A stretch of 33,638 nucleotides of DNA from Myxococcales bacterium (GTDB lineage: Bacteria; Myxococcota_A; UBA9042; JABWCM01; BTVJ01), in the NCBI GenBank assembly GCA_045863395.1, contig BTVJ01000081.1, positions 1 through 33,638 on the forward strand, in the 5' to 3' direction. The notes under the pieces are model-generated. The model saw only the letters and a list, made by a program, of their open reading frames with translations, was not told the origin of the DNA and did not search any database. The position numbers and the translations under genes were made by a program. Position 1 is the first letter of the stretch; every line of letters begins with the position of its first letter. Of the stretch, positions 16,143 to 32,464 are shown in pieces.

Positions 16143-18047
16143 ATGAGCGCTCTCAATGCACTGTCGGGCGATCTGGCGTCGGGGAGCCCCAGCGCCGCCG
16201 CACCCAAGGTCAAGGTCGTCAAGCAGCAGATCGTGGAGTTCGTCTCCGACTCGGGTGAGGGTGCCCAGACGGCCGGCCAGCTCTTCGGGACCGTCAGCGC
16301 CAAGATGGGCAACGGCGTCTGGACCGTGGAGATCATCCCTGCGGAGATCGAGCCTCCCGTCCGCTCTCGCGCCGGCGCCAGCGGCAACCGCATCCGCATT
16401 GGCACGGACCCCGTGACCAACACGGGCGATGCCGCAGACGTGGTGGTCGCGTTCAATGAGCAGGTCATCTACAGCCGCATCGACGTGGGGGCCTTCCGGC
16501 AGGGGACGGTGATCTTCCTGGAGAACAAGTGGGCATCCGACCCGCAGCAGGAGATCCGCCAGGCCTACGCCGAGGCGGTCGCGGACTTCGAGGCCCGTGG
16601 CTACGAGGTGCGCGAGGTGCCGATGGAGGCGAAGTGCCTCGAGATAGTGCCCGACCCTCGGCGCGGCAAGAACGTCTGGTGTCTGGGGATGCTGTGCGCC
16701 ATCTACGAGCGGGACCTCGGCGTCGTGCGCGCGGAGATCTCCAAGAAGCTCAAGCGGAAGGGCGACGCCATCGTCGAGCAGAACTTCCGGCTGCTGCAGT
16801 CGGGCTACGACTGGGCCGTCGAGAACGTGCCCTTCCGCTACCGTGTGCCCGTGCGGCAGGCCACCGAGGCGATGGTCGTCATGAACGGCAACCAGGCCGC
16901 GGCGCTCGGCATCATGGCGTCCGGCGCCGAGATGTGCGCCATGTACCCCATCACGCCCGCCACCTCGGCGTCGCACTACCTGGCGAGCATCTTCCACAAG
17001 AGCGGCGGCTTCCTGCACCAGGCGGAGGACGAGATCTCGGCCATCGGGTTTGCCATCGGCGCCTCCTATGCCGGGAAGACCGCGTTCACCATCACCTCCG
17101 GGCCGGGCCTCGCGCTCAAGACCGAGTTCATTGGCCTCGCTGTGATGGCCGAGGTGCCGCTCGTGATCCTCGTGGTGCAGCGCGGCGGACCCTCCACGGG
17201 CCTGCCGACCCGCGTCGAGCAGGGCGACCTGCTGGCGTCCCTGTTCGGGGAGCCCGGCGACGCCCCCAAGATCGTGCTGGCGGCGAGCACCATCGAGGAG
17301 TGCTTTCACTTCATGATCACCGGCCGCAAGCTGGCCGAGGCGTTCCGTGGGCCGGTCATCGTCCTGACGGACGCGAACCTGGCCACCGGGCAGCAGCCCT
17401 TCCCCCGGCCCAAGCCCCTCGACGAGTGGATGGCGCCGCCCATCGACCAGTCGCCCTGGGACTCGACGGTCGCGCCCTACGCATGGGACCCGGACACGGG
17501 CCTCTCGGAGCGGCCGGTGCCCGGGCAGCCCGGCGGGCAGTACGTCCTGACGGGGCTCGCCCACGACGAGCGCTCCAAGGTGGCCTACGACACGGCGATC
17601 AACCAGCGCAGCTCCGAGATGCGGAGCCGCAAGCTGGCGACCCTGCTCAAGACGCTGCGTCCTCCGAAGATCTACGGGGCGGACTCGGGAGACCTCCTGG
17701 TCGTCGGGTGGGGCTCCACCAAGGGCGCCATCGAGGAGGCCGTCGACCGGGTCCGCGCGGACGGCGCCAAGGTGTCGGCCATCCACCTGCGGTTCCTGTC
17801 GCCTCTGGAACCCGGGCTCAAGGAGATCTTCTCTCGGTTCAAGAAGGTCTTCACGGTCGAGATCAACTACAGCGACGACCGCAGCGACGCCCACGTGACC
17901 CCGGAGAACCAGCGGTACGCCCAGCTCGCCTACGTGCTGCGCGCACAGACGCTGGTCGACGTGGACTGCTGGTCCAAGGTGCCCGGCGTGCCGCTGGCGC
18001 CCGCTACCATCGAGAACGAGCTGCGACGCCGCCTGGCGCAGGCGTAG
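16143..18047 (+). CDS. korA: 2-oxoacid:ferredoxin oxidoreductase subunit alpha (fused gamma-alpha type)
   Basis: DSGEG, MNGNQAAALG, YPITPAT, QAEDEISA, TSGPGLALK.E, QRGGPSTGLPT, GWGSTKGAI. AAGGAG at 16125-16130; start could be 16131 or 16143. Confidence 0.93.
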   Translation: MSALNALSGDLASGSPSAAAPKVKVVKQQIVEFVSDSGEGAQTAGQLFGTVSAKMGNGVWTVEIIPAEIEPPVRSRAGASGNRIRIGTDPVTNTGDAADVVVAFNEQVIYSRIDVGAFRQGTVIFLENKWASDPQQEIRQAYAEAVADFEARGYEVREVPMEAKCLEIVPDPRRGKNVWCLGMLCAIYERDLGVVRAEISKKLKRKGDAIVEQNFRLLQSGYDWAVENVPFRYRVPVRQATEAMVVMNGNQAAALGIMASGAEMCAMYPITPATSASHYLASIFHKSGGFLHQAEDEISAIGFAIGASYAGKTAFTITSGPGLALKTEFIGLAVMAEVPLVILVVQRGGPSTGLPTRVEQGDLLASLFGEPGDAPKIVLAASTIEECFHFMITGRKLAEAFRGPVIVLTDANLATGQQPFPRPKPLDEWMAPPIDQSPWDSTVAPYAWDPDTGLSERPVPGQPGGQYVLTGLAHDERSKVAYDTAINQRSSEMRSRKLATLLKTLRPPKIYGADSGDLLVVGWGSTKGAIEEAVDRVRADGAKVSAIHLRFLSPLEPGLKEIFSRFKKVFTVEINYSDDRSDAHVTPENQRYAQLAYVLRAQTLVDVDCWSKVPGVPLAPATIENELRRRLAQA

Positions 18048-18058
18048 AGGAGGACCGC

Positions 18059-19012
18059 ATGTTTGGACTGAAGCAGGACTGGGATCTGGAGAGCAAGTCG
18101 CGGTTCTTCGTGCTCGACGACTACCAGGGCGGTGTGCCCCGGTGGTGCCCCGGGTGCGGTGATCACGGCGTGCTGACCGCCGTGCAGCGCCTGGCCCGGG
18201 ACGAGCAGCTCGAGCCGGAGAAGACCGCCGTGATCAGCGGCATCGGCTGCTCGAGCCGCTTCCCCCACTACATGAAGACCTACGGGTTCCACGGGCTTCA
18301 CGGGCGCGCCCTGCCGGTGGCCTCCGGCGTGCGGTCCCGCCGCCCGGACCTCCACATGTTCGTGGTGACGGGCGACGGGGATTGCACCGCCATCGGCACG
18401 GCCCACTGGATCCACGCGATCCGCTACAACATGAAGATGACCGTGCTGTTGCTCGACAACAACATCTACGGTCTCACCAAGATGCAGACCTCGCCGACCA
18501 CGCCCAAGGGCAAGACGTCGTTCACCCACCCGACGGGGGCGCTGTTGAGCCCGCTCAACCCCCTGACCGTGACCATCGGCATCACCAACGCCTCCTTCGT
18601 CGCGCAGACCGTGGACTGGAACCCGGCGCACATGTTCTCGGTGCTCAAGGCGGCGCATCGCCACCCGGGGCTGGCCTTCGTGCGCGTCCTGCAGCGCTGC
18701 CCTCACTACATGCCCGGGTACTGGGATCCGATCATGCGCGACGCGCAGAAGGTGCTGCTCCTGCAGCACCCGGATGGGATCCAGCTCGATCCGGGCCTGG
18801 AGAAGTCCTTCCCCAACAAGACCGTCCACGATCCCCACGACCGGGGGGCGGCCTTCAAGATGGCGATGCACGACGACGTCGTGCCCATCGGGCTCCTGTT
18901 CCGCGACGACGAAGCGGAGCGCTACGACGAGATGTGCGCTCGCGGGCTCGGGATGGACAACGCCGACAAGATTCGGGCCCTCGATGCGGAGCTGGACCGG
19001 TTCCTGATCTGA
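18059..19012 (+). CDS. korB: 2-oxoacid:ferredoxin oxidoreductase subunit beta (TPP-binding)
   Basis: GAGGAGG RBS. WCPGCGD, SGIGCSSR, HGRALP, GDGD, DNNIYGLTK.Q.SPT and the third cluster Cys (QRCP) are all intact. Confidence 0.94.
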   Translation: MFGLKQDWDLESKSRFFVLDDYQGGVPRWCPGCGDHGVLTAVQRLARDEQLEPEKTAVISGIGCSSRFPHYMKTYGFHGLHGRALPVASGVRSRRPDLHMFVVTGDGDCTAIGTAHWIHAIRYNMKMTVLLLDNNIYGLTKMQTSPTTPKGKTSFTHPTGALLSPLNPLTVTIGITNASFVAQTVDWNPAHMFSVLKAAHRHPGLAFVRVLQRCPHYMPGYWDPIMRDAQKVLLLQHPDGIQLDPGLEKSFPNKTVHDPHDRGAAFKMAMHDDVVPIGLLFRDDEAERYDEMCARGLGMDNADKIRALDAELDRFLI

Positions 19013-19015
19013 ACC

Positions 19016-19041
19016 AGCCGCGCGCAACGAGGCGCGCGGCT
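19016..19041 (+). other. Perfect 10-bp stem-loop just after the korB stop, no U-tract
   Basis: agccgcgcgc-aacgag-gcgcgcggct. Confidence 0.55.
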
Positions 19042-19157: not shown

Positions 19158-22100
19158 GTGAGCACGGCGATCGCAACGGAATCCGAACGGATGGGTGCCT
19201 CGACGGCTGCCACGCAGGCGTCCGGCGGCAGTGTTGGAACGATCCTCTCCGGGCGCGACGCCATCAACGCGGCCGAGCGTGTGCTGTGCGGGGCCGGCGC
19301 TGTCGCCGATCCGGCGCGCGCCGAGGGGCTCGGCCTCGCAGGGCTCTCTGCGGCGAGCCTCCTCGGAGGCCGCGAGGCGGCGGTAGCGGCGGCCCCCTAT
19401 GTCGCCCACCGGCGCCGTCTGTCGCCCCCAGTTCCCGCCTTCGGAGCGTTCGAGCTGGTCGCGGAGAGCGTCCAGCAGGGCGTCGACCACTGCGTCGTGG
19501 CGCACAGGCTCGTCTCCGCATTGGGTGGTGCTGGGGCCTGCGTGCTGCCGGGGGCGCTTGCCTCCGACGTGGCGTTCGTGCGGCTCCCTGGCGCTGACGC
19601 CGCCCGCGCCGAGGGTGCGGCGGACGGAACCGAGGACGTCGTGGGCGCGTTCGAGGCGGCCGCTCGGGCTCTCGGGCGTCCGTGCAGGCCGTTCAGCGCC
19701 CTCCACGTAGACGGGGCCGATCACGTGATCGTGGCGGCTGGACCCGCGGCGTCGGTGGCGCGGCGGCTCGTCGATCTGCTTCGGGGGCGCGGCGTGTCGT
19801 GCGGCGCGCTCTCCGTGGCGCTGGTCAGGCCCATGGTCCCGCCGCTGCAGGAGCTGCTGCGGGCGCGCTCGTCGGTCATCGTCATCAGTGACGAGGCTGA
19901 CGAGGCGGGCTCGCTCCTCGCTCACGTCCGGCGGGCGCTCGCCCACGGGGGGCCCACCGTGGTCGGCGTTCCCTTCGTCGCAGGCGGGGAGTCCGAGCTG
20001 GTCGCCAGGGTCGCCGCTGCCCTTGGCGCCGAGATCAACGGCGACGCCAACGGCCTGCGCCTGGGTCCACCGCCGATGCCCGCGCGCTCCTTGTTGGCAG
20101 GCGCCGCTCCGGCCAGCCAGTGGAGCGACGAGCTCCTGCGAGGCGCCCTGTCGTGGGTTGGTGAGCGGATCAGCGTTGCACAGCCGGCACAGGGCGGTTT
20201 CGGGGCGTCGGTGCTCTCGGTGGCGAGGGCGGGGCTCCGTCCCGGTGCCGTGGAGGCCACCGCCGGGCTCGACATGCTGTTCGTAGCGCACCCCCGCCTC
20301 GTGAGCCCTGCGCTCGTCGCGCGGCTGCGGAGGGGGGGCGCGCTCCTCGTTCAGAGCGGCGCCGCCGACAGCGACGCCCTCTGGGCGGAGCTGAGCCCAG
20401 CACGCGCCAGGGCGATCACCGAGCAAGGCGCCAGCCTGCAGTGGGTGGATGCGGCGCAGTGTGCGCCCGCTGGCGATCCGGTCTGCGACCCGCGCGTGTT
20501 TCTGCAGGGTGCCATCCTCGGCGCCTTCGACGCGCTGGAGTCCGTGCTGCCGCCGTCTCAGGGCGGTCGGGTCCCGCAGGGGGCGGGGGCGGAGCTGCTG
20601 GGCCTGGGCGCGAGCGCAATCCGCAGGGCCTCGGACCCTCCGGCGAGCCTGTCGCCTCGCCCACAGGTGGGGACACCGCGCGTGCAGGCCGGGCCGGACA
20701 CGGTGGATCTGTCCTGGCGTGACGCCATCCGCCACTTCCATGTGACCGGGGAGGGAGGGTGGACCGGGGCCGACCCGCTCCCTGCGCTGCCGCTCATGCC
20801 GCTCCGGCTGACCGGACTGCTCTCGGGCGCCCCGCGGGATCTCCCGCTGGTGCTGACCGGGCAGGCGACGGGCCCCATCGCCCTGCCCCTGGCGCGAGTG
20901 ATCGCCAACGCCGTGGAGTCCTACGAGGCGTCGGGCAGCCCCTCTCTGGCCGTCGGGCCCCGTGTGGACCGGCTGCTCCGGGTCGCTGCCCGAGCGCTGG
21001 GGAGCGGCGCTCCACAGGCGCTCTCCAGTGTGATGGGCGCTGCGCTCGACGCCTTCGTCGCCGAGTTCCAGGTCAGCGACAAGGCCGCGCAGGCGCTCGG
21101 GGCCGAGGTGGCTCATCTCAAGCGGAGCCTGCCCGAGGGAGCGGCTGCGGTGGGACTCGGGCGGCACGCCGTCTTGGCCCTCCACGCGGCGGCGACCAAC
21201 AGGGCCCGGGCCGGGGCCGTGGCCACCGTCACGGCGGAGGTGCGGGAGCTCTGCCGCAAGCTCCAGGACCTGCTCCGGGTCGACGACGCCAAGTCGCCCG
21301 CGGCCCGCAGCGCCAGCGCCCTCTCGGCGGGCGTCGGGGCCGGCGCGCAGGATCTCATCGATTCCACTGCCCTTGCGGCGTCTCTGAAGACCCGCCGTGG
21401 GGCGACCAGCCTGTCACCCTCCCGGCGGGCACACATCGAGGCGACCATCGGCGTGCTCGCCGGTTGGCTGGGTGGGCGGCGAGCCAACGCCGTCGTGCTC
21501 CACAGCGGCCTCCTGGATGGCGTGGAGCTGGCAGACACGGACGTCGTCGCGCACCCCGACCCGCTGGAGGCTGCCGTCGGGGTCTTCGACGGGCTCAGCG
21601 GCAAGGTGGCCGCGCTGCTTCGCGCCGTGCGCCGCGCGCGCCTCGAGGCCGCTGGCGCGTATGATCCAGCCCTTCACGACGCGCCCATCGCGCGCCTGGG
21701 CTGGGAGAGCTTCACCGCCGACGAGCTCCGCCTCGTGCCCCCGGTCATCGTCGTGCAGGACGCCTCCGCCGTCCGCCAGGCGCTCGCGTCGTTCGCCGGC
21801 CTGCTGCGCTCGGGGCGCACCGTGCAGGTCATCGCGCTCGAGGGCGCCATGGGCGGCGAGCCGTCGCCGGACCGCTTCGGTCTGGGCTATCTGGCCGTGG
21901 CACATCGCGACGTGTTCGTGCTTCAAGGGACGCTGGGCCGGCCGCTCCACCTGGCGGAGGGGCTCTGCCGCATGGCGCGGGCGACGCGACCCGCCGTCGC
22001 GCTCGTCGCCGAGCCCGCGTGGGGCAGCGCCGCGCCCGAGTCCGTGCAGCTCGAGGCAGCGCTGCAGGGCCGCGGGACCCCCTGCTTCATCCATGATCCC

Positions 22101-23033
22101 GCCGCCGGACCGACCTGGGCCGAGCGCTTCGACCTCTCGGAGAACCCCGCGCCGGAGGCCCCGTGGGTCACGGCCGGCGCCGACGTCATCGGGCCCGACG
22201 GGGCTCCCACGCGGGTCGAGGGGCCGTTCACCTTCGCCCACGCCGCCGCCCTGGACCCGGACGCCCGGCTGCACCTGCGCCTGATCCCCTCCGCTGCGTG
22301 GAGCGACGAGCAGGTGGAGGTGGCCGAGTGGCTCGCTGGCGATGGCGGCACGCCGCGTGTGCCGTATGTGGAGGTGGTCGACGAGGCTGGCCAGGTGCGC
22401 CGCGCGGTCATCTCACGGGAGCTGGCCTGGGCGGCGCGGGACAGGGCCCAGTTCTGGAGGGTCCTGCAGGAGCTCGCCGGAACCAACAATGAGTATGCCG
22501 AGCGTGCGGCCGCGGCGGCGCGGGCGCGCGCCATCGAGGAGGCCGACGAGCGGCTCGCGGCGGCCGCGGCGCAGCACGCGGCCCAGCTCGACCAGGCGCG
22601 GGCCGAGACCGCCCGCGAGGCCCTCGAGAAGGTGGCGCGGGTGCTCCTGGACCTGGACCTGGCGGCACCGGCGCCCGCGCGTGCCGTCGTGACGGCGCCC
22701 CCGGCGCTCACGGCGCCGCCCTCCGCGGTGGCCGAGGCGGTCGCGCCGGCCCCAGTGGTGGACGCGGCCGCCGAGGAGGACGCATCGTTCGACGAGGCGT
22801 ACCTGGACACCCCGCTGTGCACGACCTGCAACGAGTGCATCAACCTGAACCCGCGCATGTTCAAGTACAACGCCGACAAGCAGGCGCTGCTGGCGGACGT
22901 GACGGCGGGAACCTTCGCCCAGCTCGTGGCGGCGGCCGAGAAGTGCTCTGCCCGCTGCATCCACCCCGGCAAGCCCCGGAAGGGTGACGCGTCGGCCACG
23001 CCGGACGTGCTCGCGCGCGCCGCGGCGCTGTAG
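19158..23033 (+). CDS. Degenerate PFOR/NifJ-like protein with C-terminal single-cluster ferredoxin domain
   Basis: GGGAGG RBS and GTG start. PFOR-like remnants AESVQQGVDHCVVAHRL, GADHVIVAAG..LVDLLR..G.LSVALVRP, LAVAHRDVFVLQ, GPFTFAH, WRVLQELAG. C-terminal CTTCNEC...AAEKC. No YPITP and no GDG. Confidence 0.8.
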   Translation: MSTAIATESERMGASTAATQASGGSVGTILSGRDAINAAERVLCGAGAVADPARAEGLGLAGLSAASLLGGREAAVAAAPYVAHRRRLSPPVPAFGAFELVAESVQQGVDHCVVAHRLVSALGGAGACVLPGALASDVAFVRLPGADAARAEGAADGTEDVVGAFEAAARALGRPCRPFSALHVDGADHVIVAAGPAASVARRLVDLLRGRGVSCGALSVALVRPMVPPLQELLRARSSVIVISDEADEAGSLLAHVRRALAHGGPTVVGVPFVAGGESELVARVAAALGAEINGDANGLRLGPPPMPARSLLAGAAPASQWSDELLRGALSWVGERISVAQPAQGGFGASVLSVARAGLRPGAVEATAGLDMLFVAHPRLVSPALVARLRRGGALLVQSGAADSDALWAELSPARARAITEQGASLQWVDAAQCAPAGDPVCDPRVFLQGAILGAFDALESVLPPSQGGRVPQGAGAELLGLGASAIRRASDPPASLSPRPQVGTPRVQAGPDTVDLSWRDAIRHFHVTGEGGWTGADPLPALPLMPLRLTGLLSGAPRDLPLVLTGQATGPIALPLARVIANAVESYEASGSPSLAVGPRVDRLLRVAARALGSGAPQALSSVMGAALDAFVAEFQVSDKAAQALGAEVAHLKRSLPEGAAAVGLGRHAVLALHAAATNRARAGAVATVTAEVRELCRKLQDLLRVDDAKSPAARSASALSAGVGAGAQDLIDSTALAASLKTRRGATSLSPSRRAHIEATIGVLAGWLGGRRANAVVLHSGLLDGVELADTDVVAHPDPLEAAVGVFDGLSGKVAALLRAVRRARLEAAGAYDPALHDAPIARLGWESFTADELRLVPPVIVVQDASAVRQALASFAGLLRSGRTVQVIALEGAMGGEPSPDRFGLGYLAVAHRDVFVLQGTLGRPLHLAEGLCRMARATRPAVALVAEPAWGSAAPESVQLEAALQGRGTPCFIHDPAAGPTWAERFDLSENPAPEAPWVTAGADVIGPDGAPTRVEGPFTFAHAAALDPDARLHLRLIPSAAWSDEQVEVAEWLAGDGGTPRVPYVEVVDEAGQVRRAVISRELAWAARDRAQFWRVLQELAGTNNEYAERAAAAARARAIEEADERLAAAAAQHAAQLDQARAETAREALEKVARVLLDLDLAAPAPARAVVTAPPALTAPPSAVAEAVAPAPVVDAAAEEDASFDEAYLDTPLCTTCNECINLNPRMFKYNADKQALLADVTAGTFAQLVAAAEKCSARCIHPGKPRKGDASATPDVLARAAAL

Positions 23034-23042
23034 GGGGGGAGG

Positions 23043-23900
23043 ATGGACGCCCTGGCCACAGGGGGAGCGATCCTGCTCGGGGTGACGCTGGTCTTTGGCA
23101 CCGTGCTGGCCATCGCCAACAAGTACCTGCGGGTCATCGAGGATCCGCGCATCGACGTGGTCGAGGGCAAGCTGCCGGGCAGCAACTGCGGAGCCTGCGG
23201 GCAGCCCGGGTGCCGCGCCTTCGCCGAGGCGGTGGTCGGCGGCGCTCTCAACCCGGGCAAGTGCTCGGTGAGCTCCCCCGAAGGAATCGCCGACATCGCC
23301 GCCTACCTCGGCGTCGAGGCGGCGATGGAAGAGAAGCGTGTCGCGCGCCTCCACTGCGCGGGCGGCTCGTCGTGCGTCCCCAAGGTCGCGGACTATCAGG
23401 GCATGTCGTCCTGTCGTGCGGCCTTCGTCGTCAACGGAGGGGGGCGTGCGTGCGCCTGGGGGTGCCTCGGCCTCGCCGACTGCGAGGTTGCCTGCACCTT
23501 CGACGCCATCCGCATGAACGGCGACCACCTGCCGGTCGTGGACGTCGACAAGTGCACCGCCTGCAACGCCTGCGTCGAGGTGTGCCCCCTGCACCTGTTC
23601 ACGCTGGAGCCCATCTCACGCAGGCTCATCGTCCAGTGCAGCTCGCCGCTCGCGGCGGACGCCGCGCGCGCCACCTGCACCGTGGCCTGCGACGCGTGCG
23701 GGCGCTGCGCCCTCGACGCGAAGCCCGGGGTCATCGAGATGAAGCGTGGGCTGCCCGTCATCGTGAACCCGGCCGGCGCGACCGAGGAGGCGACCTTCCG
23801 GTGCCCGAGCGGCGCCATCCAGTGGGTGACCGGCAACCAGTTCCAGGCCGAGGACGCCCGGCCCGTCAGCCGACCAGTCAGGAGGATCCGCCATGCGTAG
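23043..23900 (+). CDS. rnfB: Rnf complex subunit B (membrane-anchored polyferredoxin)
   Basis: N-terminal TM helix, EDPRID..LPGSNCGACGQPGC, CAWGCLGLADCEVAC.FDAI, CTACNACVEVCP, CDACGRC...CP. Confidence 0.93.
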   Translation: MDALATGGAILLGVTLVFGTVLAIANKYLRVIEDPRIDVVEGKLPGSNCGACGQPGCRAFAEAVVGGALNPGKCSVSSPEGIADIAAYLGVEAAMEEKRVARLHCAGGSSCVPKVADYQGMSSCRAAFVVNGGGRACAWGCLGLADCEVACTFDAIRMNGDHLPVVDVDKCTACNACVEVCPLHLFTLEPISRRLIVQCSSPLAADAARATCTVACDACGRCALDAKPGVIEMKRGLPVIVNPAGATEEATFRCPSGAIQWVTGNQFQAEDARPVSRPVRRIRHA

Positions 23901-26900
23901 CTGGTTGGGGGCCGTCCGCAAGCTGCGGGCGCTGTTCGGGCGCGCCGAGGAGGCAGCGCCGGTCCCGTTCCCCGGGAGCGATGCCCTGGTCAGCGGGGAG
24001 CAGGCGGCGTTGGTGACGGAGGCCCTCCTTGCCGACGGCATCTGGCGCGCGACGGTGGGGGCGGGGGCGTCCTCTCGCTTCGACACCGAGGAGCTCGACC
24101 TTCCGCCCAACGCCTTTGGCGACACCGTGTCACACCACGTGGTCGGTGGGGGCGCAGACGCGGTGGCTGGAGCCGCCGGCCTTGCGATGACCGGGCAGCG
24201 CGCTGCGGTGTTCCTGACCGGCGAGCGCCTCCTGGAGGCCCACGGAGCGCTCCGCGCGGCCGTGGAGAGGCACCTGCCGCTCGTGCTCCACGTCTCCTGT
24301 GATCCTGGCCACGGGGGCGCCTCCGGTCCGGGCAACGGGCATGAGGCCGTCCACGCCATCGCGGATACGGGGGCCGTCGTGCTCTTCGCCAGTGACGCGC
24401 AGGGGGTGGTCGACGCGACGCTCATGGCGCGGCGCGTGGCCGAGCTGGCGCTGGTGCCGGTGGTCATCGCGATGGACGGGCCCGAGACGGCGTGGGGCGT
24501 CCAGGACGTGAAGCTTGCGGGCGCCGCGTTGATCGCCGAGTACCTTGGTGCGTCCGGCGATGCCATCGACGCGCCTACCCCGGCGCAGCGGCTCCTGTTC
24601 GGGGAGTCGCGGCGGCGGGCGCCGCGCTGGTTCGACCCGGACCGCCCCGTCGCCCTCGGGGCCTCCCTCGCTGGGGACGACCTGGCGATGGCGCTGGTCG
24701 GTGAGACCATCTTCTTCGGGGCCCACGCGCGGCCCATCGTCCACGAGTCGAGCGAGCGGCTCGTGGCTTTGACGGGGCGGTCACTCTCCCCTCTGGTGGC
24801 CCACCGAACCGACGACGCCGAGTCGGTGGTCGTCCTCCTGGGCGCATCCGTGGAGTCCGCGACCACCCTGGCCGACTCCCTGCGAGCCAGCGGAGCCCGG
24901 GTCGGGGTGCTCGGCGTGAGCCTCGTGACGCCCTTCCCCTCCAGAGAGGTCGCGGCGGCGCTCCGCGGCGCCCGGGTGGTGACCGTCGTCGAGCGCGTGG
25001 ATGGCGCCCTCGCAGCGGGCGGGCCGCTGTGGCACCAGGTCCGCGCTGCGCTGGCCGGATCCGAGACGCAGGTGGTCGCCGCGACCGCGGGCCTCGGCGG
25101 ACGGCCGGTCTCCGGCGCTCAGCTCGCGGCCGTCTTTCGCCAGATGGGCGAAGGGGGAGACCCGCGCTCGCTGCTGCACCTGGATCTGGCGCCCCTCGAG
25201 GAGCGCTCCCGCTTCCCGAAGCGCGAGATGGTCCAGCAGGCCGTGCGCCGCGCCTACCCGGATCTGGAGCGCTGGGCCGCCAAGGGGTCGAGCCCGACGC
25301 TGCGGCCGGCATCTGCCCGCGTCGTGGCCCTCTACGGCGGTGTGGCGGACATCCGGGAGGAGGCCATCGAGGCACTCGCGGTCGCTCTGAGTGATGCCGG
25401 TCCTCGCGTCCGGAGCTACGCCACCACGCTCGCCCAGGGCGTCTGGGCAGGGCGCGTCGGAGCGGCAAGAGAGCCAATAGGGGCGCTGGAGGGGCCCGTC
25501 GAGGCGGCCCTGGTGCGGAGCCTGGATCTGCCGGCTGCGCTGGACCCGCTCGTCGACCTGAGGTCCGGGGGGACGCTGATCATCGCCACCGACCTGCGCG
25601 GCGAGGCGCTCTGGCGCGCCCTGCGACCCGCCTGGCGAGAGGGCGTGCGGACCCGGTCGGCGCGCCTGCTCGCTGTCAGCGGTGGCTTCGAGGAGCTGGT
25701 GGCCGCGCTGCATGGTGGAGAAGAGGTCGCGTGGGCGGGCCTCGACTCCCCAGCGGCGCCTGCGGTCCCCGCTTCGTTGCCCATGGCGGTGCGGCGCTTC
25801 GGCGACCACGGCGCTGCCTTCGACAGCGTGCCTCGATTCCATGGCGAGGTGGTCGAGCCGCGCCTCGGGGGTGAGGCCCCGGGCACTGCGCCCGATCCCT
25901 TCCCGTCTCTGCGCCTCACCCCGGCGGGGACGGCGTCGCTGCGGGACCGCTCTGCGGTGCGCACTCATGTGCCCGTCGTCGACCTCGCCGGCTGTACGGG
26001 CTGCGGCGTCTGCTGGGCGGCCTGCCCGGACGGCGCGCTGGCGGCGACGGCGCTCCCCCTCGTCGAGCTGCTGGACGCGGCGGCGGGGCGGGTGCGTCGC
26101 GACGCGCCGGATCCCGCGGCGGACAAGCTCCGCCGCGCCCACAAGCAGCTCGCGGCGCGGCTTGAGGGCGACCTCGCAAAGGGGGCAGCCCTGGACCGCG
26201 CGACCCTGGACGCGGCGTGGGAGTGGCTCGCGGGCCGCATGGGCGTCGAGGGCGACGAGCGCGCTGCCATGGGAGTCGCCCACGCGGCGACGTCCGACGA
26301 GCTCCTCCGCGCTCCGCTGGCCGCCACTCGCGCCCTGTTCCATGAGCCCCACGCTGCGGAGAAGGGCACGGGCGCGATCCTCAGCCTCGTGGTCGACCCC
26401 CACGCCTGCCAGGGATGTGGCGTGTGCGTCAAGGAGTGCCCGGCGGGCGTCATCGCCAAGGTCCCACAGGACGGTCCCGCGGTGGATCGCCTGCGCCTGG
26501 GCTTCGCTGCCTGGGAGGCCCTGCCGGAGACGCCCGGTCCCGTGATCGCCAGGGCCCGGGAGCGGGTCCAGCCGGGGCCGCTCCCGGCCATCCTCATGTC
26601 CCGCGCCTGCCACTTCGCCCTCGCCGGTGGCGACGCGGCGGAGCCCGGGTCCGGGGAGCGGCTCGCGACCCGGCTGGTGGCGGCGACCACGGAGTATTCG
26701 CAGCAGCGCCGCTCCCTGGCCGCCCTGCGCGAGGCGGACGAGCTCCTGGAGGCGCTGCGGGCCAGGCTGCGGACTTCTCTCGCGGGCGGAGTCGCCACCG
26801 ACCGGCTGGACGTCCTCGACGCCGCGCTCCACGGCACGACGGGGAAGGGCGCCGGTGAGCTGGTCGTGCGTCTGGAGGCGTTGGGCGAGCGATCCACCAT

Positions 26901-28164: not shown

Positions 28165-28169
28165 GGCAG

Positions 28170-29462
28170 ATGGCCACGTTCCGCCACGGGGTCCACCCGG
28201 AGGAGCACAAGGAGGCGACGGCGGGGCTCCCCATCGAGCGCATGCGCTTCGTGGGGGAGCACGTCCTTCACCTCGCCCAGCACATCGGGGCCCCGTCGCG
28301 CGCGCTGGTCCGCGCAGGCGACAAGGTCGTCCGCGGCCAGATGATCGGGGCGCCCGGAGGCTTCGTCTCGACGGCGCTCCACGCTCCGGTCACCGGGACC
28401 GTGAAGGCCATCGAGCTGCGCCCGCACCCGTCGGGGCGCCTCCAGGAGGCCATCGTCATCACGACGGACCCCTTCGCGACGCAGACCATCGACGCGCGCC
28501 TGCCGGTCAACGGGTCCCTCGTGAAGCAGGTCCAGGACGCGGGCATCGTGGGCCTGGGGGGCGCGGCGTTTCCAAGCCACGTCAAGCTGAGCGTCCCCGA
28601 GGGCAGGAAGGTCCGTCACGTCATCATCAACGGCTGCGAGTGCGAGCCCTTCCTGACCTGCGACCACCGGATCATGGTGGAGCGGCCCGAGGCGGTCGTG
28701 CGCGGCCTGCGGCTCCTCATGACGCACCTCGGCGCCGAGCGCGGCGTCATCGGGGTCGAGCGCAACAAGCCGGACGCCGTCGAGGCCCTGAGCAGGCTCA
28801 CCGCTGAGATGCCCGACGTGGAGGTCGTGGCGCTCCACGTCAAGTACCCCCAGGGCGCCGAGAAGATGCTCATCGACGCCGTCTTCAAGCGAGAGGTGCC
28901 GAGCGGCAAGCTGCCCCTCGACCTGGAGATGGTCGTCAACAACGTGGGCACCGTCGCCGCCATCGCGAACCTGGTCGACCAGGGGACGCCGCTGGTGGAG
29001 CGCGTCGTGACCGTGACGGGCCCGGGCATCCGGCGGCCGGCCAACGTGCTGGTGCCGCTCGGCACCCCGGTGCAGGCGGTCATCGACCACTGTGGGGGCC
29101 TCCTCCCCGAGACGCGCCAGGTGATCCTCGGCGGCCCCATGATGGGTCAGGCCCAGAAGTCGCTGGACATCCCGGTGACCAAGGGCACCTCGGGCGTCCT
29201 GGCGCTGCTGCGGCCCATGGAGCTGGCCGTAGAGGAGCCGTGCATCAAGTGCGGCCGCTGCCTCGAGGCCTGCCCCATGTTCCTGAACCCGTCGCGCCTC
29301 GGCCTGCTCGCCAGGGCGGAGGACCACGTCGGGCTCAAGCAGTACCACGCCCTCGACTGCGTGGAGTGCGCGAGCTGCTCGTTCGTCTGCCCGTCGTACA
29401 TCCCGCTGGTCCAGCTCATCCGCGTGGGCAAGGCGCTCGTCCGCCAGAAGGAGGCTCGGTGA
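28170..29462 (+). CDS. rnfC: Rnf complex subunit C
   Basis: TFRHGVHP, QHIGAP, HAPVTGTV, AGIVGLGGAAFPSHVKL, INGCECEPFLTCD, KYPQGAEK, GGPMMG, CIKCGRCLEACP, CVECASCSFVCP. Confidence 0.97.
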   Translation: MATFRHGVHPEEHKEATAGLPIERMRFVGEHVLHLAQHIGAPSRALVRAGDKVVRGQMIGAPGGFVSTALHAPVTGTVKAIELRPHPSGRLQEAIVITTDPFATQTIDARLPVNGSLVKQVQDAGIVGLGGAAFPSHVKLSVPEGRKVRHVIINGCECEPFLTCDHRIMVERPEAVVRGLRLLMTHLGAERGVIGVERNKPDAVEALSRLTAEMPDVEVVALHVKYPQGAEKMLIDAVFKREVPSGKLPLDLEMVVNNVGTVAAIANLVDQGTPLVERVVTVTGPGIRRPANVLVPLGTPVQAVIDHCGGLLPETRQVILGGPMMGQAQKSLDIPVTKGTSGVLALLRPMELAVEEPCIKCGRCLEACPMFLNPSRLGLLARAEDHVGLKQYHALDCVECASCSFVCPSYIPLVQLIRVGKALVRQKEAR

Positions 29463-30463
29463 TGGGCTCGCGCCCCGCAGACCTGCAGATCGCCACCGCG
29501 CCCTTCGTGCACCAGGGTCAGAGCACCCGCCGGGTGATGCTCGAGGTGGTCGCGGGGGCCCTGGTCATCGCCGCCGTGGCCACGTGGTACTTCGGCCTGG
29601 CGGCCATCCTGCTCATCGTGACCGCCGTCATCGGCGCGTGCGGCACCGAGTGGCTGCTCCAGCCGGCCCCGCGCAAGGGGCTCGGCAGCCTGCGCGACGG
29701 CAGCGCGCTCCTGACCGGCCTCCTGCTGGCGTTGACGCTCCCCCCGTCCATGCCCCTGTGGATGGCCCTGCTCGGCGGCGTCGTGGGCGTCGGCCTCGGC
29801 AAGGTCATCTGGGGTGGGCTCGGGCAGAACATGTTCAACCCCGCTCTCGTCGGGCGCGCCTTTCTCCAGGCCGCCTTCCCGACGGCGATCACCACCTGGA
29901 CCGCCCCGGGCCAGGAGTTCATGAAGATCTCCTCGAGCACCGTGGCCGCCCCGCTGCTCCACGGGAACGTGGACATCGTGACCAGCGCCACCCCGCTCGG
30001 CATGGCCAAGTTCGAGAAGCACTTCATGGACCTCGGGCCCATGCTCAGCGGCAACACCGCCGGGTCGCTCGGCGAGACGGCGGCCATCGCGCTGATCGTC
30101 GTCGGCCTGGTACTTGGAGTTCGGCGCATCTTCGACTGGCGCCTGCCGGTCTCCACGCTCCTGACGGCGGCCATCTTCGCGGGCATCGTCCACCTGGTCG
30201 CGCCGGAGTCGTACCCCAGCCCGCTCTTTGTCCTGACGTCGGGCGGGCTGCTCTTCGGCGCCGTGTTCATGGTGACCGACCCCGTCACGACCCCGATCAC
30301 GCCGAAGGGGGCCTGGATCTACGGCGTGGGCGTCGGGCTGCTGGTCGTCCTGATCCGCTTCTGGGGTGGCCTGCCGGAGGGGGTCATGTACGCGATCCTG
30401 CTCATGAACGGGGTCACCCCGCTCATCAACCGCGCGACCCAGCCGCGGCGCTTCGGAGGGTGA
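29462..30463 (+). CDS. rnfD: Rnf complex subunit D
   Basis: DGSALLTGLLLALTLPP, GGLGQNMFNPALVGRAFL, FMN-attachment motif TSATPL, GSLGET, FMVTDPVTTP, PEGVMYAILLMN. TGATG coupling to rnfC. Confidence 0.97.
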   Translation: MGSRPADLQIATAPFVHQGQSTRRVMLEVVAGALVIAAVATWYFGLAAILLIVTAVIGACGTEWLLQPAPRKGLGSLRDGSALLTGLLLALTLPPSMPLWMALLGGVVGVGLGKVIWGGLGQNMFNPALVGRAFLQAAFPTAITTWTAPGQEFMKISSSTVAAPLLHGNVDIVTSATPLGMAKFEKHFMDLGPMLSGNTAGSLGETAAIALIVVGLVLGVRRIFDWRLPVSTLLTAAIFAGIVHLVAPESYPSPLFVLTSGGLLFGAVFMVTDPVTTPITPKGAWIYGVGVGLLVVLIRFWGGLPEGVMYAILLMNGVTPLINRATQPRRFGG

Positions 30464-30464
30464 C

Positions 30465-31106
30465 GTGAGCACGAACGAGCCCTCTGCCTCTCGCCTGATC
30501 GCGACCATGGCCATCGCCGGCCTCACGTCGGGCCTGCTGCTGGTCGGCGCCTATCTGGGGACGCTGCCGACCATCCAGCGCAACCAGGCCGAGGCTCTCC
30601 GCGCGGCGGTGTTCCGCGTGGTGCCCGGCTCGGCGACCATCGACGCCTGGATCTGGAAGGGTGACCGCCTGGTGCGCTACGACGGCCCGAAGGACGCGCT
30701 CCCCGAGGGAGAGGCCGTCTATGCCTGCTCGGCAGAGAGCGGCGAGGTGGTCGGCTGGGCCATCCCGGGCGCCGGGCCCGGCTTCCAGGACACCATCGCC
30801 CTGATCTACGGCTACGACCCGGCCCGCAAGGTCATCGTGGGCATGGAGGTCCTGGAGAGCCGCGAGACGCCGGGCCTCGGCGACAAGATCCAGAAGGACG
30901 CCCACTTCGTGGCCAACTTCGACGCCCTGGCCGTGGAGCCGTCCATCGTGGCGGTGAAGCCCAACGAGAAGCACAACCCCAACGAGGTGGACACCATCTC
31001 GGGCGCGACGATCTCGTCCAAGGCGGTCATCCGCATCCTCAACCAGAGCACCGGCGTCTGGGTCGAGCGCCTCGCCGCGCACCCGGCCGCGGAGGTCGCC
31101 CCATGA
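30465..31106 (+). CDS. rnfG: Rnf complex subunit G
   Basis: N-terminal TM helix, GPGFQDTI, ETPGLGDKI, flavinylation motif DTISGATISS. Confidence 0.95.
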   Translation: MSTNEPSASRLIATMAIAGLTSGLLLVGAYLGTLPTIQRNQAEALRAAVFRVVPGSATIDAWIWKGDRLVRYDGPKDALPEGEAVYACSAESGEVVGWAIPGAGPGFQDTIALIYGYDPARKVIVGMEVLESRETPGLGDKIQKDAHFVANFDALAVEPSIVAVKPNEKHNPNEVDTISGATISSKAVIRILNQSTGVWVERLAAHPAAEVAP

Positions 31107-31723
31107 CGGACAGCCGCGCCGTCCAGGAGCTCGTCAAGGGCCTCTGGCGCGAGAACCCCATCTTCGTGGCCGTGCTCGGCCTCTGCCCGGCCATGGCCGT
31201 GACCAACTCGCTGCGCAACGGCCTGGTCATGGGCATCGCGACCCTGTTCGTGCTCGTCGGGTCGAGCCTCCTGGTCTCGCTCCTTCGCAAGGTCATCCCG
31301 AAGCCCGTGCGCATCTCGGTCTACATCATCATCATCGCGACCTTCGTGACCATGGTGGACTTCGCGCTCGCCGCCGCCATGCCCGACGCCCACAAGGAGC
31401 TCGGGGCCTTCATCGCCCTCATCGTGGTCAACTGCGTGATCCTGGGGCGCCAGGAGGCCTTCGCGTCGCGCAACACCGTGGGGCTGGCCGTGATGGACGC
31501 CGTCGGCATGGCCGGCGGCTTCACCATCGCCATGGCGATGATCGGCGGCATCCGCGAGATCCTCGGTAGCGGGAGCCTGCTCGGCATGCCGCTCTTCGGG
31601 GCGGAGTTCGAGCCGTGGGCCATCATGATCCTGCCCCCCGGAGGGTTCTTGACGATGGGCGCGCTGCTGATGACGTTCGCGTGGGTCAAGGAGCGCCGGG
31701 CGCTGGCCGAGCGGAGGGCCTGA
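31103..31723 (+). CDS. rnfE: Rnf complex subunit E
   Basis: GLWRENP, LGLCPAMAVT, LIVVNCVILGR.EAFA, IREILG.G, ILPPGGF. ATGA overlap with rnfG. Confidence 0.96.
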   Translation: MTDSRAVQELVKGLWRENPIFVAVLGLCPAMAVTNSLRNGLVMGIATLFVLVGSSLLVSLLRKVIPKPVRISVYIIIIATFVTMVDFALAAAMPDAHKELGAFIALIVVNCVILGRQEAFASRNTVGLAVMDAVGMAGGFTIAMAMIGGIREILGSGSLLGMPLFGAEFEPWAIMILPPGGFLTMGALLMTFAWVKERRALAERRA

Positions 31724-32301
31724 TGGGAGAGCTGGTCTTCATCTTTGCGTCGGCGAGCTTGATCAACAACTTCACGCTGGCCTACTTCCTCGGCCTGTGC
31801 CCGTTCTTCGGGGTCACGGGGCGCCTGGACACGGCCTTCCGGCTTGGCCTGGCCAACGTCTTCGTGCTGCTGATCACGTCCTTTGCCGCCTGGCTCCTCA
31901 ACACCTTCGTGCTGGTCCACGCCCCCTACCTGCGGCTGATCAGCTTCATCGTCGTCATCGCGAGCACCGTGCAGTTCGTGGAGATGGTCATCAAGAAGGC
32001 GTCACCGGCGCTGTTTCGCGCGCTGGGCATCTTCCTGCCGCTGATCACCACCAACTGCGCTATCCTGGGCCTCGCCCTGTTCCAGACGAGCAAGGGCTAC
32101 GGCCTCGTCGAGGGGCTGGTCTACGCGCTCGGCGCGGGCGTGGGCCTGACCCTGGCGCTGGTCATCATGGCGGGAATCCGCGAGGAGGCCGAGCTGTCCA
32201 CGGTGCCGCAGCTCGTGCGCGGCACGGCCATGAGCTTCTTCATCGCCGGCATCCTGTCCATGGCCTTCATGGGCTTCGCCGGCCTGTTCGCGGAGGCCTG
32301 A
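31723..32301 (+). CDS. rnfA: Rnf complex subunit A
   Basis: LINNFTLAYFLGLCPFFG, VIASTVQFVEM, LGIFLPLITTNCAILG, MAGIRE, AGILSMAFMGF. TGATG coupling to rnfE. Confidence 0.96.
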   Translation: MGELVFIFASASLINNFTLAYFLGLCPFFGVTGRLDTAFRLGLANVFVLLITSFAAWLLNTFVLVHAPYLRLISFIVVIASTVQFVEMVIKKASPALFRALGIFLPLITTNCAILGLALFQTSKGYGLVEGLVYALGAGVGLTLALVIMAGIREEAELSTVPQLVRGTAMSFFIAGILSMAFMGFAGLFAEA

Positions 32302-32302
32302 G

Positions 32303-32464
32303 ATGGAGCACCTGGTCGCGGTCGGGGGCCTGGCGGTCATGGCGGTGATCTGGTTCGTGCTCCAGCGCGCCACCGGCACCACGGAGACGGCGGGGCGAGG
32401 GCGCTGCGGCGGCTGTGGCTGTGGCGAGCGGTGCGAGAAGGAGGAGGGCGCGCCGCCTGCCTGA
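32303..32464 (+). CDS. 53-aa single-TM Cys-rich protein (not in the ORF track)
   Basis: GGAGG at 32292-32296, ATG 1 nt after the rnfA stop. MEHLVAVGGLAVMAVIWFVLQRATGTTETAGRGRCGGCGCGERCEKEEGAPPA*. Confidence 0.75.
   Translation: MEHLVAVGGLAVMAVIWFVLQRATGTTETAGRGRCGGCGCGERCEKEEGAPPA

What the first reader, a model, noticed from the sequence alone, without database searches (positions are those of the whole stretch)
16143..32464. Candidate new energy-conserving supercomplex: KorAB, two PFOR pseudo-enzymes and Rnf in one operon
Seen: korA-korB-[1291 aa PFOR-like]-rnfB-[1423 aa PFOR-like]-rnfC-D-G-E-A-[53 aa Cys protein], all on the + strand. Gaps are 11 nt or less, or overlaps, except 145 nt after korB. 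The second PFOR-like gene sits between rnfB and rnfC and overlaps rnfB. Established: KorAB reduces ferredoxin, and RnfB is the ferredoxin-interacting entry point of the ion-pumping Fd:NAD+ oxidoreductase. Inference: the two non-catalytic PFOR paralogues form a scaffold or electron wire linking 2-oxoacid oxidation (or reductive carboxylation) to Rnf without a soluble ferredoxin, and no standalone ferredoxin gene is present here. From memory, unverified, related kor/por/rnf clusters with intact PFORs exist in other bacteria, so the novelty would be the double pseudo-enzyme version.
Basis: partly seen in the sequence, partly recalled or inferred. Interest (0 to 1): 0.88.

Follow-up and report, generated by a model that had tools for sequence, protein, structure and literature searches.

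The report
Rnf operon with ferredoxin-tethering dead enzymes
A conserved eleven-gene block places a likely 2-oxoglutarate-oxidising enzyme and the Rnf membrane ion pump beside two large relatives of pyruvate:ferredoxin oxidoreductase that have lost their catalytic residues; one is predicted to grip the enzyme and carries a ferredoxin on a predicted flexible arm, which would likely pass electrons to the pump and let the cell gain extra energy from this step of the citric acid cycle.

Summary
In detail: korA-korB-X1-rnfB-X2-rnfCDGEA plus a 53-aa membrane peptide. The five-gene front end recurs in 18 of 19 genome loci and 21 of 22 metagenome loci with enough flank. X1 and X2 keep the PFOR fold but lack the TPP and proximal-cluster motifs family-wide, and are under purifying selection (dN/dS about 0.15). 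Both likely derive from an intact ~1650-aa PFOR found in rnfB-PFOR-rnfCDGEA operons and split its iron-sulfur sites: X2 keeps domain V, X1 keeps the C-terminal ferredoxin. A helical insertion of X1 is predicted to dock on KorA (score 0.64, best control 0.00), and X1-like genes track korAB. The best reading is a tethered-ferredoxin adaptor coupling 2-oxoglutarate oxidation to Rnf, not a fixed wire. Binding to Rnf was not tested, and the genome does encode a stand-alone ferredoxin. The gene order is already in print, with the genes labelled 'por' and 'por-like' (PMC6315080). Eight searches found no paper on the loss of catalysis. This scan reported the same system on other genomes in six notes. 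Verdict: new variant of Rnf, interest 0.72.

The parts
16143..18047 (+). korA, 2-oxoacid:ferredoxin oxidoreductase alpha subunit (domains III-I-II), catalytic motifs intact; carries a 16-aa insertion (residues 576-591) seen in operon KorAs only
   Evidence: TIGR03710 516 bits, over cut-off; best solved match 6n2n_A, E 2e-84; YPITP at 268 and QRGGP at 346; insertion in 8 of 8 operon KorAs shown, absent from the genome's C4 KorA
17295..17810 (+). KorA surface (residues within 385-556) predicted to touch X1
   Evidence: these 41 positions are 12% identical in the non-operon KorA of contig C4 (40% overall) and median 67% in 40 operon KorAs (71% overall)
18059..19012 (+). korB, beta subunit (domain VI) with TPP motif GDGD...N and four proximal-cluster cysteines
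   Evidence: TIGR02177 231 bits (cut-off 261.9); 6n2n_B E 2.9e-50; C30, C33, C64, C214, G105-D106-G107-D108 and N134 invariant in 44 of 44 aligned
19158..23033 (+). X1, PFOR-fold pseudo-enzyme: no TPP, proximal or domain V cluster motifs; ends in long helix, low-complexity linker and single-cluster ferredoxin
   Evidence: AlphaFold2 model of residues 92-1291, pLDDT 80.7; Foldseek best match PFOR 6cin, E 9.7e-20
21267..21413 (+). X1 residues 704-752: helical insertion in domain VI predicted to dock on KorA
   Evidence: lies between the positions of the CxGC and TGC motifs, a stretch of 31 residues in NifJ-type PFORs and 114-133 in this family
22650..23030 (+). X1 Ala/Pro-rich linker (about 1165-1214) and C-terminal ferredoxin (C1221, C1224, C1227, C1263)
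   Evidence: pLDDT under 50 for residues 1160-1223; Pfam Fer4_13 E 0.00087, under the curated cut-off; motif in 52 of 55 locus-encoded X1
23043..23900 (+). rnfB (membrane anchor, FeS domain, polyferredoxin; 21 Cys)
   Evidence: NCBIfam RnfB models to E 5e-53, TIGR01944 66.5 vs cut-off 68.7; Pfam PF04060
23893..28164 (+). X2, PFOR-fold pseudo-enzyme: keeps two [4Fe-4S] motifs of domain V, lacks TPP and proximal-cluster ligands and the C-terminal ferredoxin
   Evidence: model of residues 224-1423, pLDDT 89.1; Foldseek 6cin E 6.8e-31, TM 0.52
25993..26439 (+). X2 domain V cysteines C701, C704, C707, C711, C839, C842, C845, C849
   Evidence: all eight kept in 77 of 86 homologues
28170..29462 (+). 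rnfC
   Evidence: TIGR01945 512 bits, over cut-off
29462..30463 (+). rnfD
   Evidence: TIGR01946 313 bits, over cut-off; SAT motif
30465..31106 (+). rnfG
   Evidence: TIGR01947 84 bits (cut-off 102), best family; SGAT motif
31103..31723 (+). rnfE
   Evidence: TIGR01948 223 bits, over cut-off
31723..32301 (+). rnfA
   Evidence: TIGR01943 226.9 bits (cut-off 229.3), best family
32303..32464 (+). 53-aa peptide: hydrophobic N-terminal stretch and Cys-rich tail; likely an accessory membrane subunit
   Evidence: a like ORF follows the last rnf gene in 56 of 70 loci examined by pattern; no Pfam family at E 0.001

Best explanation
The block encodes an intact 2-oxoacid:ferredoxin oxidoreductase (KorAB, likely using 2-oxoglutarate), a complete Rnf complex and two PFOR-fold proteins that lack the catalytic residues, of which X1 is predicted to grip KorA and likely swings its own tethered ferredoxin from KorB towards RnfB, while X2 likely serves as the platform on Rnf. 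Shown: gene order, loss of motifs, split of the iron-sulfur sites, purifying selection. Predicted: PFOR folds, the flexible linker, the X1-KorA interface. Inferred: an ancestral long PFOR with docking insertions and a C-terminal ferredoxin fed Rnf directly; duplicated copies lost catalysis and were kept as adaptors that plug KorAB, which has no domain V, into the same socket. X1 and X2 would pair as PFOR protomers do. In this organism electrons would run 2-oxoglutarate > KorB cluster > X1 ferredoxin > (X2 clusters) > RnfB > NAD+, with ion export, giving NADH plus an ion gradient where 2-oxoglutarate dehydrogenase gives NADH alone.
For: (1) Order korA-korB-X1-rnfB-X2 in 18 of 19 genome loci and 21 of 22 metagenome loci with enough flank. 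(2) 0 of 55 X1 and 0 of 82 X2 locus proteins have YPITP, GDG..DIG or YSNTG. (3) dN/dS median 0.16 for X2 (16 pairs) and 0.15 for X1 (5 pairs). (4) Intact long PFORs occupy X2's slot between rnfB and rnfC in 16 of 20 regions fetched. (5) The ferredoxin tail occurs once per operon: on the PFOR in all 16 intact-type operons, on X1 in 52 of 52 X1 proteins of X2-type loci, on no X2 (0 of 82), and not on the X1 remnants of the 6 operons that keep an intact PFOR. (6) Among intact-type operons, all 6 with korAB have an X1-core gene after korB, and all 8 without korAB (4 kb or more of flank) have none. (7) Model of KorA+KorB+X1 core: score 0.64, best of 3 controls 0.00; the mark was reached by 116 of 157 solved complexes and 2 of 215 mismatched pairs, counts that hold only roughly for this three-chain job with my own alignments; runs agree in at least 82% of contacts, partner pLDDT at least 80; replacing KorA gives 0.00. 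The X1 side lies in an insertion that NifJ-type PFORs lack. (8) sucCD follows X2 in L035 and L076. (9) The homologous genes are co-expressed in tubeworm symbionts (PMC6315080 Table S1; PMC11636981 supplement).
Against: No test of X1 or X2 against any Rnf subunit, or of X1 against X2, was run; no cluster distances were measured. The genome has a soluble FdxA, a NifJ-type PFOR, two more KorAB pairs and a second rnf cluster, so a soluble route exists. L027 has X1 without korAB in 7.7 kb upstream, L047 has X1 inverted against X2 with neither kor nor rnf in the locus, and L035 and L076 lack rnfC directly after X2. Nine of 86 X2 homologues lost half or more of the domain V cysteines. The KorA interface is not more conserved than the rest of KorA (0.73 vs 0.79), nor the X1 interface than the rest of its core (0.50 vs 0.51). 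Substrate and direction are inferred from motifs and neighbours only.
Confidence: 0.58

Rival explanations
1. X1 is only a KorA-bound private ferredoxin. The KorAB-X1 unit and Rnf are co-expressed but meet transiently, and soluble FdxA can stand in.
For: Only the X1-KorA contact has model support; FdxA is in the genome; in L035 and L076 rnfC-A do not follow X2.
Against: X2, or the intact PFOR, is held between rnfB and rnfC in 59 of 65 metagenome and 20 of 21 genome loci with flank and overlaps rnfB here. A 1423-aa dead protein kept under selection has no evident job in a purely soluble route.
Confidence: 0.18
2. One reading: X1 and X2 form a fixed chain of clusters from KorB to RnfB, with X2's domain V as the obligatory wire.
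For: All eight domain V cysteines are kept in 77 of 86 X2 homologues although the proximal site is lost; KorAB lacks domain V (PMC13768988 section 5).
Against: X1 has one cluster site, behind about 55 residues predicted disordered. Nine of 86 X2 lack the wire. X2's domain V sits in a PFOR-like arrangement next to its own dead domain VI (TM 0.52 to 6cin).
Confidence: 0.12
3. Same assembly, reverse direction: Rnf uses the ion gradient to reduce the tethered ferredoxin, and KorAB carboxylates succinyl-CoA.
For: The homologous cluster was listed as 'rTCA cycle cluster 2' in an autotrophic symbiont, and Rnf was proposed to recycle ferredoxin for the carboxylases (PMC6315080). The genome also has 2-oxoglutarate dehydrogenase E1 for the oxidative step.
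Against: No ATP-citrate lyase match here (no control genome rang, so this is weak). Three COX1-family genes. In Endoriftia korAB(3) and the 'PFOR-like ferredoxin' fall when the rTCA operon rises (PMC11636981).
Confidence: 0.15
4. X1 and X2 are regulators or oxygen shields of KorAB and Rnf rather than electron carriers.
For: X2's lost proximal site is replaced by a fixed E-x-x-S (E in 79, S in 84 of 86), which may bind something else. The host has oxidase-family genes.
Against: The ferredoxin tail is kept exactly once per operon, which fits a carrier role.
Confidence: 0.07
5. X1 and X2 are decaying duplicates of a PFOR gene.
For: Identity to intact PFOR is low (25-33%) and dN/dS is about twice that of rnfB and rnfC.
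Against: dN/dS at most 0.24 in all pairs; full-length homologues named from several phyla; X2 forms one supported clade; confident folds.
Confidence: 0.02

Closest known systems
Rnf complex (RnfABCDGE, ferredoxin:NAD+ oxidoreductase), gene order rnfBCDGEA
   Same: All six subunits are present and best match Rnf models; the order BCDGEA is described (PMC3534657 passage).
   Different: A 1423-aa dead PFOR lies between rnfB and rnfC, and korAB, X1 and a 53-aa peptide flank the set. Described Rnf takes electrons from soluble ferredoxin.
Tubeworm symbiont 'rTCA cycle cluster 2' (Escarpia laminata symbiont; Endoriftia KorAB(3) with 'PFOR-like ferredoxin')
   Same: Table S1 of PMC6315080 lists sucD, sucC, por, rnfB, por-like, korB, korA, nuoF* in a row, all expressed. 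PMC11636981 lists KorA(3), KorB(3) and a 'PFOR-like ferredoxin' at consecutive locus tags, regulated together. L035 and L076 show the same order with dead X1 and X2.
   Different: Those papers treat the genes as PFORs or possible PFORs. In the passages and supplements I saw, neither notes lost catalytic residues, a tethered ferredoxin or a KorA contact. I did not obtain the symbiont sequences, so their match to X1 and X2 rests on gene order and annotation.
PFOR between rnfB2 and rnfC2 in the Solemya velum symbiont (PMC4287430)
   Same: Same slot as X2; pyruvate was proposed as electron donor for that Rnf. It matches the intact-type operons.
   Different: Read as an ordinary PFOR gene; no korAB, X1 or pseudo-enzyme is mentioned in the three passages seen.
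One-subunit PFOR (Moorella 6cin, Desulfovibrio africanus 1b0p)
   Same: Fold and domain order of X1 and X2.
   Different: X1 and X2 lack the TPP, CoA-loop and proximal-cluster motifs and carry helical insertions, a C-terminal long helix and, in X1, a ferredoxin tail.
Two-subunit OGOR of Magnetococcus marinus (6n2n)
   Same: Best solved match for KorA and KorB, with aligned active-site residues.
   Different: This KorA has a surface that differs from 6n2n and from the genome's C4 KorA and is predicted to bind X1.

Membership tests
PFOR/OFOR enzyme (for X1 and X2) | PFOR fold with domains I, II, III, VI | tested here: met
   Foldseek best hits are PFORs for both models; domain I was wholly (X2) or partly (X1) outside the folded range; for X2 it matches by sequence
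PFOR/OFOR enzyme (for X1 and X2) | Domain I YPITP motif and catalytic glutamate (residue roles recalled) | tested here: not met
   YPITP in 0 of 86 X2 and 0 of 25 X1 homologues; Glu column E in 4 of 86 X2, gap in 25 of 25 X1
PFOR/OFOR enzyme (for X1 and X2) | Domain VI TPP/Mg motif GDG...N | tested here: not met
   window X2 reads GAEG, X1 reads DAS at the GDG columns; the YSNTGGQ loop is deleted in both; 0 of 82 and 0 of 55 locus proteins
PFOR/OFOR enzyme (for X1 and X2) | Four cysteines of the proximal [4Fe-4S] cluster | tested here: not met
   X2: E, S, T, S at the four columns (family E79, S84, S73 of 86 at three of them); X1: none in the window protein
PFOR/OFOR enzyme (for X1 and X2) | Domain III glycine-rich CoA loop | tested here: not met
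   not conserved in either family; alignment is poor there, and most X1 proteins are short forms without this region
PFOR/OFOR enzyme (for X1 and X2) | Domain V with two [4Fe-4S] motifs | tested here: inconclusive
   met in X2 (8 Cys; 77 of 86 homologues), not met in X1
PFOR/OFOR enzyme (for X1 and X2) | CoA-dependent 2-oxoacid oxidation | not testable with these tools
   needs purified protein
Two-subunit OGOR (KorAB) | alpha subunit III-I-II with YPITP, Glu, Arg; beta subunit with GDGD...N and four Cys | tested here: met
Two-subunit OGOR (KorAB) | 2-oxoglutarate specificity | tested here: inconclusive
   KorB R67 aligns with R63 of 6n2n_B, whose role in binding the distal carboxylate is recalled, not read; sucCD neighbours in L035 and L076; no equivalog cut-off reached
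Rnf complex | Six subunits A, B, C, D, E, G | tested here: met
   each best matches its Rnf family; C, D, E over cut-off, A, B, G just under
Rnf complex | Covalent-FMN threonine motifs in RnfD and RnfG (motifs recalled) | tested here: met
   SAT in RnfD and SGAT in RnfG
Rnf complex | Ion-coupled ferredoxin:NAD+ electron transfer; Na+ or H+ specificity | not testable with these tools
   needs vesicle assays
Stable KorAB-X1-X2-Rnf supercomplex (proposed) | X1 binds KorAB | tested here: met
   by model only: score 0.64, best control 0.00; mark reached by 116 of 157 solved and 2 of 215 mismatched pairs, counts rough here
Stable KorAB-X1-X2-Rnf supercomplex (proposed) | X1 or X2 binds RnfB/RnfC; X1 binds X2 | not tested
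   the single complex job went to KorAB-X1; gene order only

The most novel reading that the evidence does not exclude
A widespread, undescribed membrane-bound 2-oxoacid:NAD+ oxidoreductase ion pump: Rnf carries a socket first built for a long PFOR with a swinging ferredoxin arm, and dead copies of that PFOR now act as exchangeable adaptors that plug KorAB into the socket, making the 2-oxoglutarate step of the citric acid cycle an ion-pumping coupling site that needs no soluble ferredoxin.
Probability: 0.4. Interest if true: 0.88.

Novelty: new variant of a known kind. Interest (0 to 1): 0.72.

Why it matters
Rnf is described as taking electrons from soluble ferredoxin. If this assembly is real, 2-oxoglutarate and pyruvate oxidation can be coupled straight to ion pumping through a private tethered carrier, a coupling site missing from current energy budgets of Myxococcota, Planctomycetota, Acidobacteriota and sulfur-oxidising Gammaproteobacteria. 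It also corrects annotation: X2 homologues are widely named pyruvate-ferredoxin oxidoreductase and may have been counted as carbon-fixing PFORs in tubeworm symbionts, although they lack the active site. The X1-KorA interface is a specific prediction that can be tested with two soluble fragments.

Tried and rejected
Sequence search of solved structures with X1 found nothing; the fold link came from structure. The scan of genome contigs with X2 alone gave 2 loci. My first mapping of the GDG motif hit the wrong site and was redone. Promoter and terminator scans were at chance level (0 vs 0.3; 2 vs 2.8). RNA-labelled runs hold the stretch (6 runs, 3 studies) and one has overlapping contigs from 16000 to 32050, but these are contigs, DNA may be in the libraries, and they show neither transcription nor one transcript, so I do not count them as support. 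dN/dS could not be computed for the window's own lineage: no close DNA relative was fetched. The careful tree did not finish; the quick tree left out 18 rows whose end motif my pattern missed, and it cannot root or order the duplications. The interface is not more conserved than the rest of either protein. The ATP-citrate lyase search had no ringing control. A link to the M. marinus PFOR (Mmc1_1741/1742) was considered; PMC12337175 passages give no operon context, and four papers that might bear on it or on Rnf gene orders, among them the Biegel 2011 review, are not held. Decay and a uniform fixed wire were rejected for the reasons given under the rivals.

Full report
Observation. NCBIfam names KorA, KorB and all six Rnf subunits; RnfC, D and E pass their cut-offs and A, B and G fall just short. 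The window is the whole of contig C81 of an 8.8-Mb genome, 97% complete. Contigs of 4 of 4 runs laid on the stretch show no insertion or deletion. I call the 1291-aa protein X1 and the 1423-aa protein X2.

What X1 and X2 are. X2 matches PFOR domains I and II and two Fer4 motifs; X1 matches domain II and a C-terminal single-cluster ferredoxin, the latter under the Pfam cut-off. AlphaFold2 models of X1 92-1291 (pLDDT 80.7) and X2 224-1423 (89.1) both find one-subunit PFORs first in Foldseek. Homologue searches gave 108 proteins for X2 and 25 for X1, each among 8000 candidates scored. I sorted the 132 distinct proteins into 86 X2-type, 25 X1-type (each including the window's own), 16 intact long PFORs of about 1650 aa, 4 NifJ-type and 1 intermediate (P0096). 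The intact group was defined by its motifs, so its conservation is by construction. In a quick tree of domain VI (57 rows; 18 dropped) the 16 X2 rows form one branch (SH-aLRT 100) and 17 of 18 X1 rows another (99). Source names for these proteins include Acidobacteriota, Planctomycetota, Myxococcota, Deltaproteobacteria, Chromatiaceae and Thiohalocapsa, and many X2 are named pyruvate-ferredoxin oxidoreductase.

Catalytic motifs. YPITP is in 0 of 86 X2 and 0 of 25 X1. In X2 the first, second and last proximal-cluster cysteines read E (79 of 86), S (84) and S (73). The GDG motif is gone and the YSNTGGQ loop is deleted in both window proteins. In proteins read from loci, 0 of 55 X1 and 0 of 82 X2 have YPITP, GDG..DIG or YSNTG; one X2 matches CxGCxE. 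The roles of these residues follow from the PFOR literature (domain roles: PMC13768988 sections 4 and 5, read in full; residue numbers recalled). KorA and KorB keep every one of these motifs. What survives is complementary: X2 keeps the eight domain V cysteines (77 of 86; the other 9 keep three or four), X1 keeps the ferredoxin tail (first three Cys in 23 of 25, the misses being gaps). One X1 row shows cysteines in the domain V columns; I did not examine it.

Gene order. A profile of X2 matched 59 of 401 genomes of the phylum at E 1e-60, intact and dead types together. I fetched 40 regions chosen by hand, 20 of each type, and the best 80 of 198 metagenome loci. With 7.8 kb or more upstream, korA-korB-X1-rnfB-X2 is seen in 18 of 19 genome loci and 21 of 22 metagenome loci. 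With both flanks, the ten genes are in the window's order in 15 of 18 and 13 of 16, all present in another order in 3 and 1, and incomplete in 0 and 2. Exceptions: L027 (no korAB), L047 (X1 inverted, no kor or rnf), L035 and L076 (nuoF-like gene before korA, sucCD after X2). A hydrophobic, Cys-rich peptide follows the last rnf gene in 56 of 70 loci. Kin are not independent, so these counts are descriptive.

Three operon types. Of the 20 intact-type regions, 16 read rnfB-PFOR-rnfC onward, each PFOR with its own ferredoxin tail; 4 have no rnf. Six of the 16 have korAB upstream, and all six have a short gene (330-550 aa) after korB that holds X1's domain VI and no ferredoxin. Three of these six match an independent X1 profile strongly; of the others one matches at E 0.0002, one at 0.13 and one not at all, and they were aligned by hand-picked ranges. 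Eight with 4 kb or more of flank have neither korAB nor an X1 core; two are cut. So the X1 core tracks korAB, and the ferredoxin tail appears once per operon. Four genomes (G287, G294, G253, G033) carry both an X2 locus and an intact-PFOR operon, and L050 has them in tandem.

Selection. In 16 non-overlapping pairs picked from 131 close pairs, none including the window, Nei-Gojobori dN/dS medians were X2 0.16 (16 pairs, max 0.24), X1 0.15 (5), korA 0.12 (3), korB 0.09 (4), rnfB 0.06 (14), rnfC 0.07 (11). This is not decay.

A predicted contact. I modelled KorA 246-625, KorB 1-293 and X1 672-998, each with a 44-row alignment. Score 0.64, best of 3 controls 0.00; the mark was reached by 116 of 157 solved complexes and 2 of 215 mismatched pairs, counts that hold only roughly for this job; runs agree in at least 82% of contacts and partner pLDDT is at least 80. 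All confident contacts are between X1 704-752 (plus 833) and KorA; replacing KorA gives 0.00. That X1 segment lies between the CxGC and TGC positions, a stretch of 31 residues in three NifJ-type PFORs and 114-133 in this family, so the pass is unlikely to be a memory of the solved OFOR dimer interface; this last step is my inference. The 41 KorA positions are 12% identical in the genome's non-operon KorA (40% overall), median 67% in 40 operon KorAs (71% overall) and 37-41% in four KorAs from operons with the short X1 (63-67% overall). Against: surfaces diverge faster in general, and the interface is not more conserved than the rest of either chain. The model supports binding; it does not show it.

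Mechanism. X1 ends in a 53-residue helix, about 55 residues with pLDDT under 50 and the ferredoxin; the distance from the end of domain VI to the ferredoxin is 106-122 residues in the 38 X1 proteins where it could be measured. Two-subunit enzymes lack domain V and have one cluster. The simplest reading is that X1 holds KorAB and supplies a private swinging ferredoxin, and that X2 takes the intact PFOR's place on Rnf, its two clusters acting as an optional relay. The link to Rnf rests on gene order alone. The genome has 2-oxoglutarate dehydrogenase E1, succinyl-CoA ligase and three COX1-family genes and no ATP-citrate lyase match (uninformative control), which favours the oxidative direction: NADH plus an ion gradient from a donor near -500 mV (potential recalled). 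It also has FdxA, a NifJ-type PFOR, two further KorAB pairs and a second rnf cluster, so a soluble route is available too.

What is in print. PMC4287430 (three passages) notes PFOR genes between rnfB2 and rnfC2. PMC6315080 (passages, part 2 of supplement 1, passages of part 1, all of Table S1) lists sucD, sucC, por, rnfB, por-like, korB, korA, nuoF* as an expressed cluster and says two rnf clusters are cotranscribed with PFOR-encoding por genes; its Fig. S4 is not held. PMC11636981 (passages and supplement rows; one picture-only supplement not searched) shows KorA(3), KorB(3) and a 'PFOR-like ferredoxin' at consecutive tags falling together under sulfide limitation. The 2026 PFOR review PMC13768988 (abstract, sections 4 and 5, passages) does not mention such proteins in what I saw. 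PMC3534657, PMC5317091, PMC12337175, PMC13147460 and PMC4853749 were seen as passages and add nothing on this point. Eight full-text searches found no paper describing the loss of catalysis, the tethered ferredoxin or a KorA contact; subscription papers and the Biegel 2011 review were not searchable. Six earlier notes of this scan describe the same system on other genomes; they are not independent evidence. Two further look-ups returned nothing.

Verdict. Real, conserved and mis-annotated. The parts are known families and the gene order is in print, but the adaptor reading is not, as far as I could search. New variant of a known kind; interest 0.72; the full supercomplex reading has probability about 0.4.

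Noticed in passing
L133:6379-17440 (G000:C28): Second rnf cluster in the order C-D-G-E-A-B; its RnfC is divergent (28% to the window's), its RnfB is fused to a glutamate-synthase-small-subunit-like NAD(P)-binding domain (712 aa), and multiheme cytochrome and HmcB/HmcC-like genes follow.
   Followed up: partly
G000:C151:5556-6406 (L134): A second copy of the end of rnfE and all of rnfA, 97% identical in protein to the window's, without the other rnf genes on that contig; duplication or strain variant. Two laid runs show a cluster of differences at window 31830-31896.
   Followed up: partly
protein P0096: A 1647-aa long PFOR that has lost the domain I motifs but keeps CxGC, both domain V motifs and the ferredoxin tail; it branches next to the X2 clade (support 92) and looks like an intermediate stage.
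   Followed up: partly
proteins P0046, P0054, P0055, P0060, P0064, P0067, P0071, P0072, P0074; locus L080: A subgroup of X2 with only three or four of the eight domain V cysteines; the two named by taxon are Planctomycetota and Phycisphaerales.
   Followed up: partly
window 17868-17915 (KorA 576-591) and 18059-18090 (KorB N-terminus): A 16-residue KorA insertion present in operon KorAs and absent from the C4 KorA, and a conserved KorB N-terminal extension; neither is in the predicted X1 interface, so they may bind X2 or Rnf.
   Followed up: partly
loci with complete X1: X1 comes in three sizes: about 1270-1380 aa (as here), about 765-885 aa lacking the N-terminal domains (most common), and 330-550 aa without ferredoxin.
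   Followed up: yes
L035:52-16666 and L076:2061-17158: Variant nuoF-like, korA, korB, X1, rnfB, X2, sucC, sucD with no rnfC next; L035 also has a fumarate-reductase-like flavoprotein gene upstream.
   Followed up: partly
L129:11012-11881: A gene with an oxidoreductase NAD-binding domain (FNR-like) directly upstream of rnfB in an intact-PFOR operon.
   Followed up: partly
window 4958-9136 (-): 1392-aa protein with five IPT/TIG domains and a Cys-rich middle part, probably a surface lipoprotein.
   Followed up: no
window about 12350-13626 (+): ORF with pentapeptide-repeat-like sequence and a Pro-rich tail, judged by eye from the translation.
   Followed up: no
window 520-1848 (+), 4027-4983 (+), 10597-12246 (-), 13654-15048 (-), 1853-3061 (-): Ordinary neighbours: histidyl-tRNA synthetase, coproporphyrinogen III oxidase, family 5 solute-binding protein, PP2C phosphatase, DUF5924/DUF2914 protein.
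   Followed up: no
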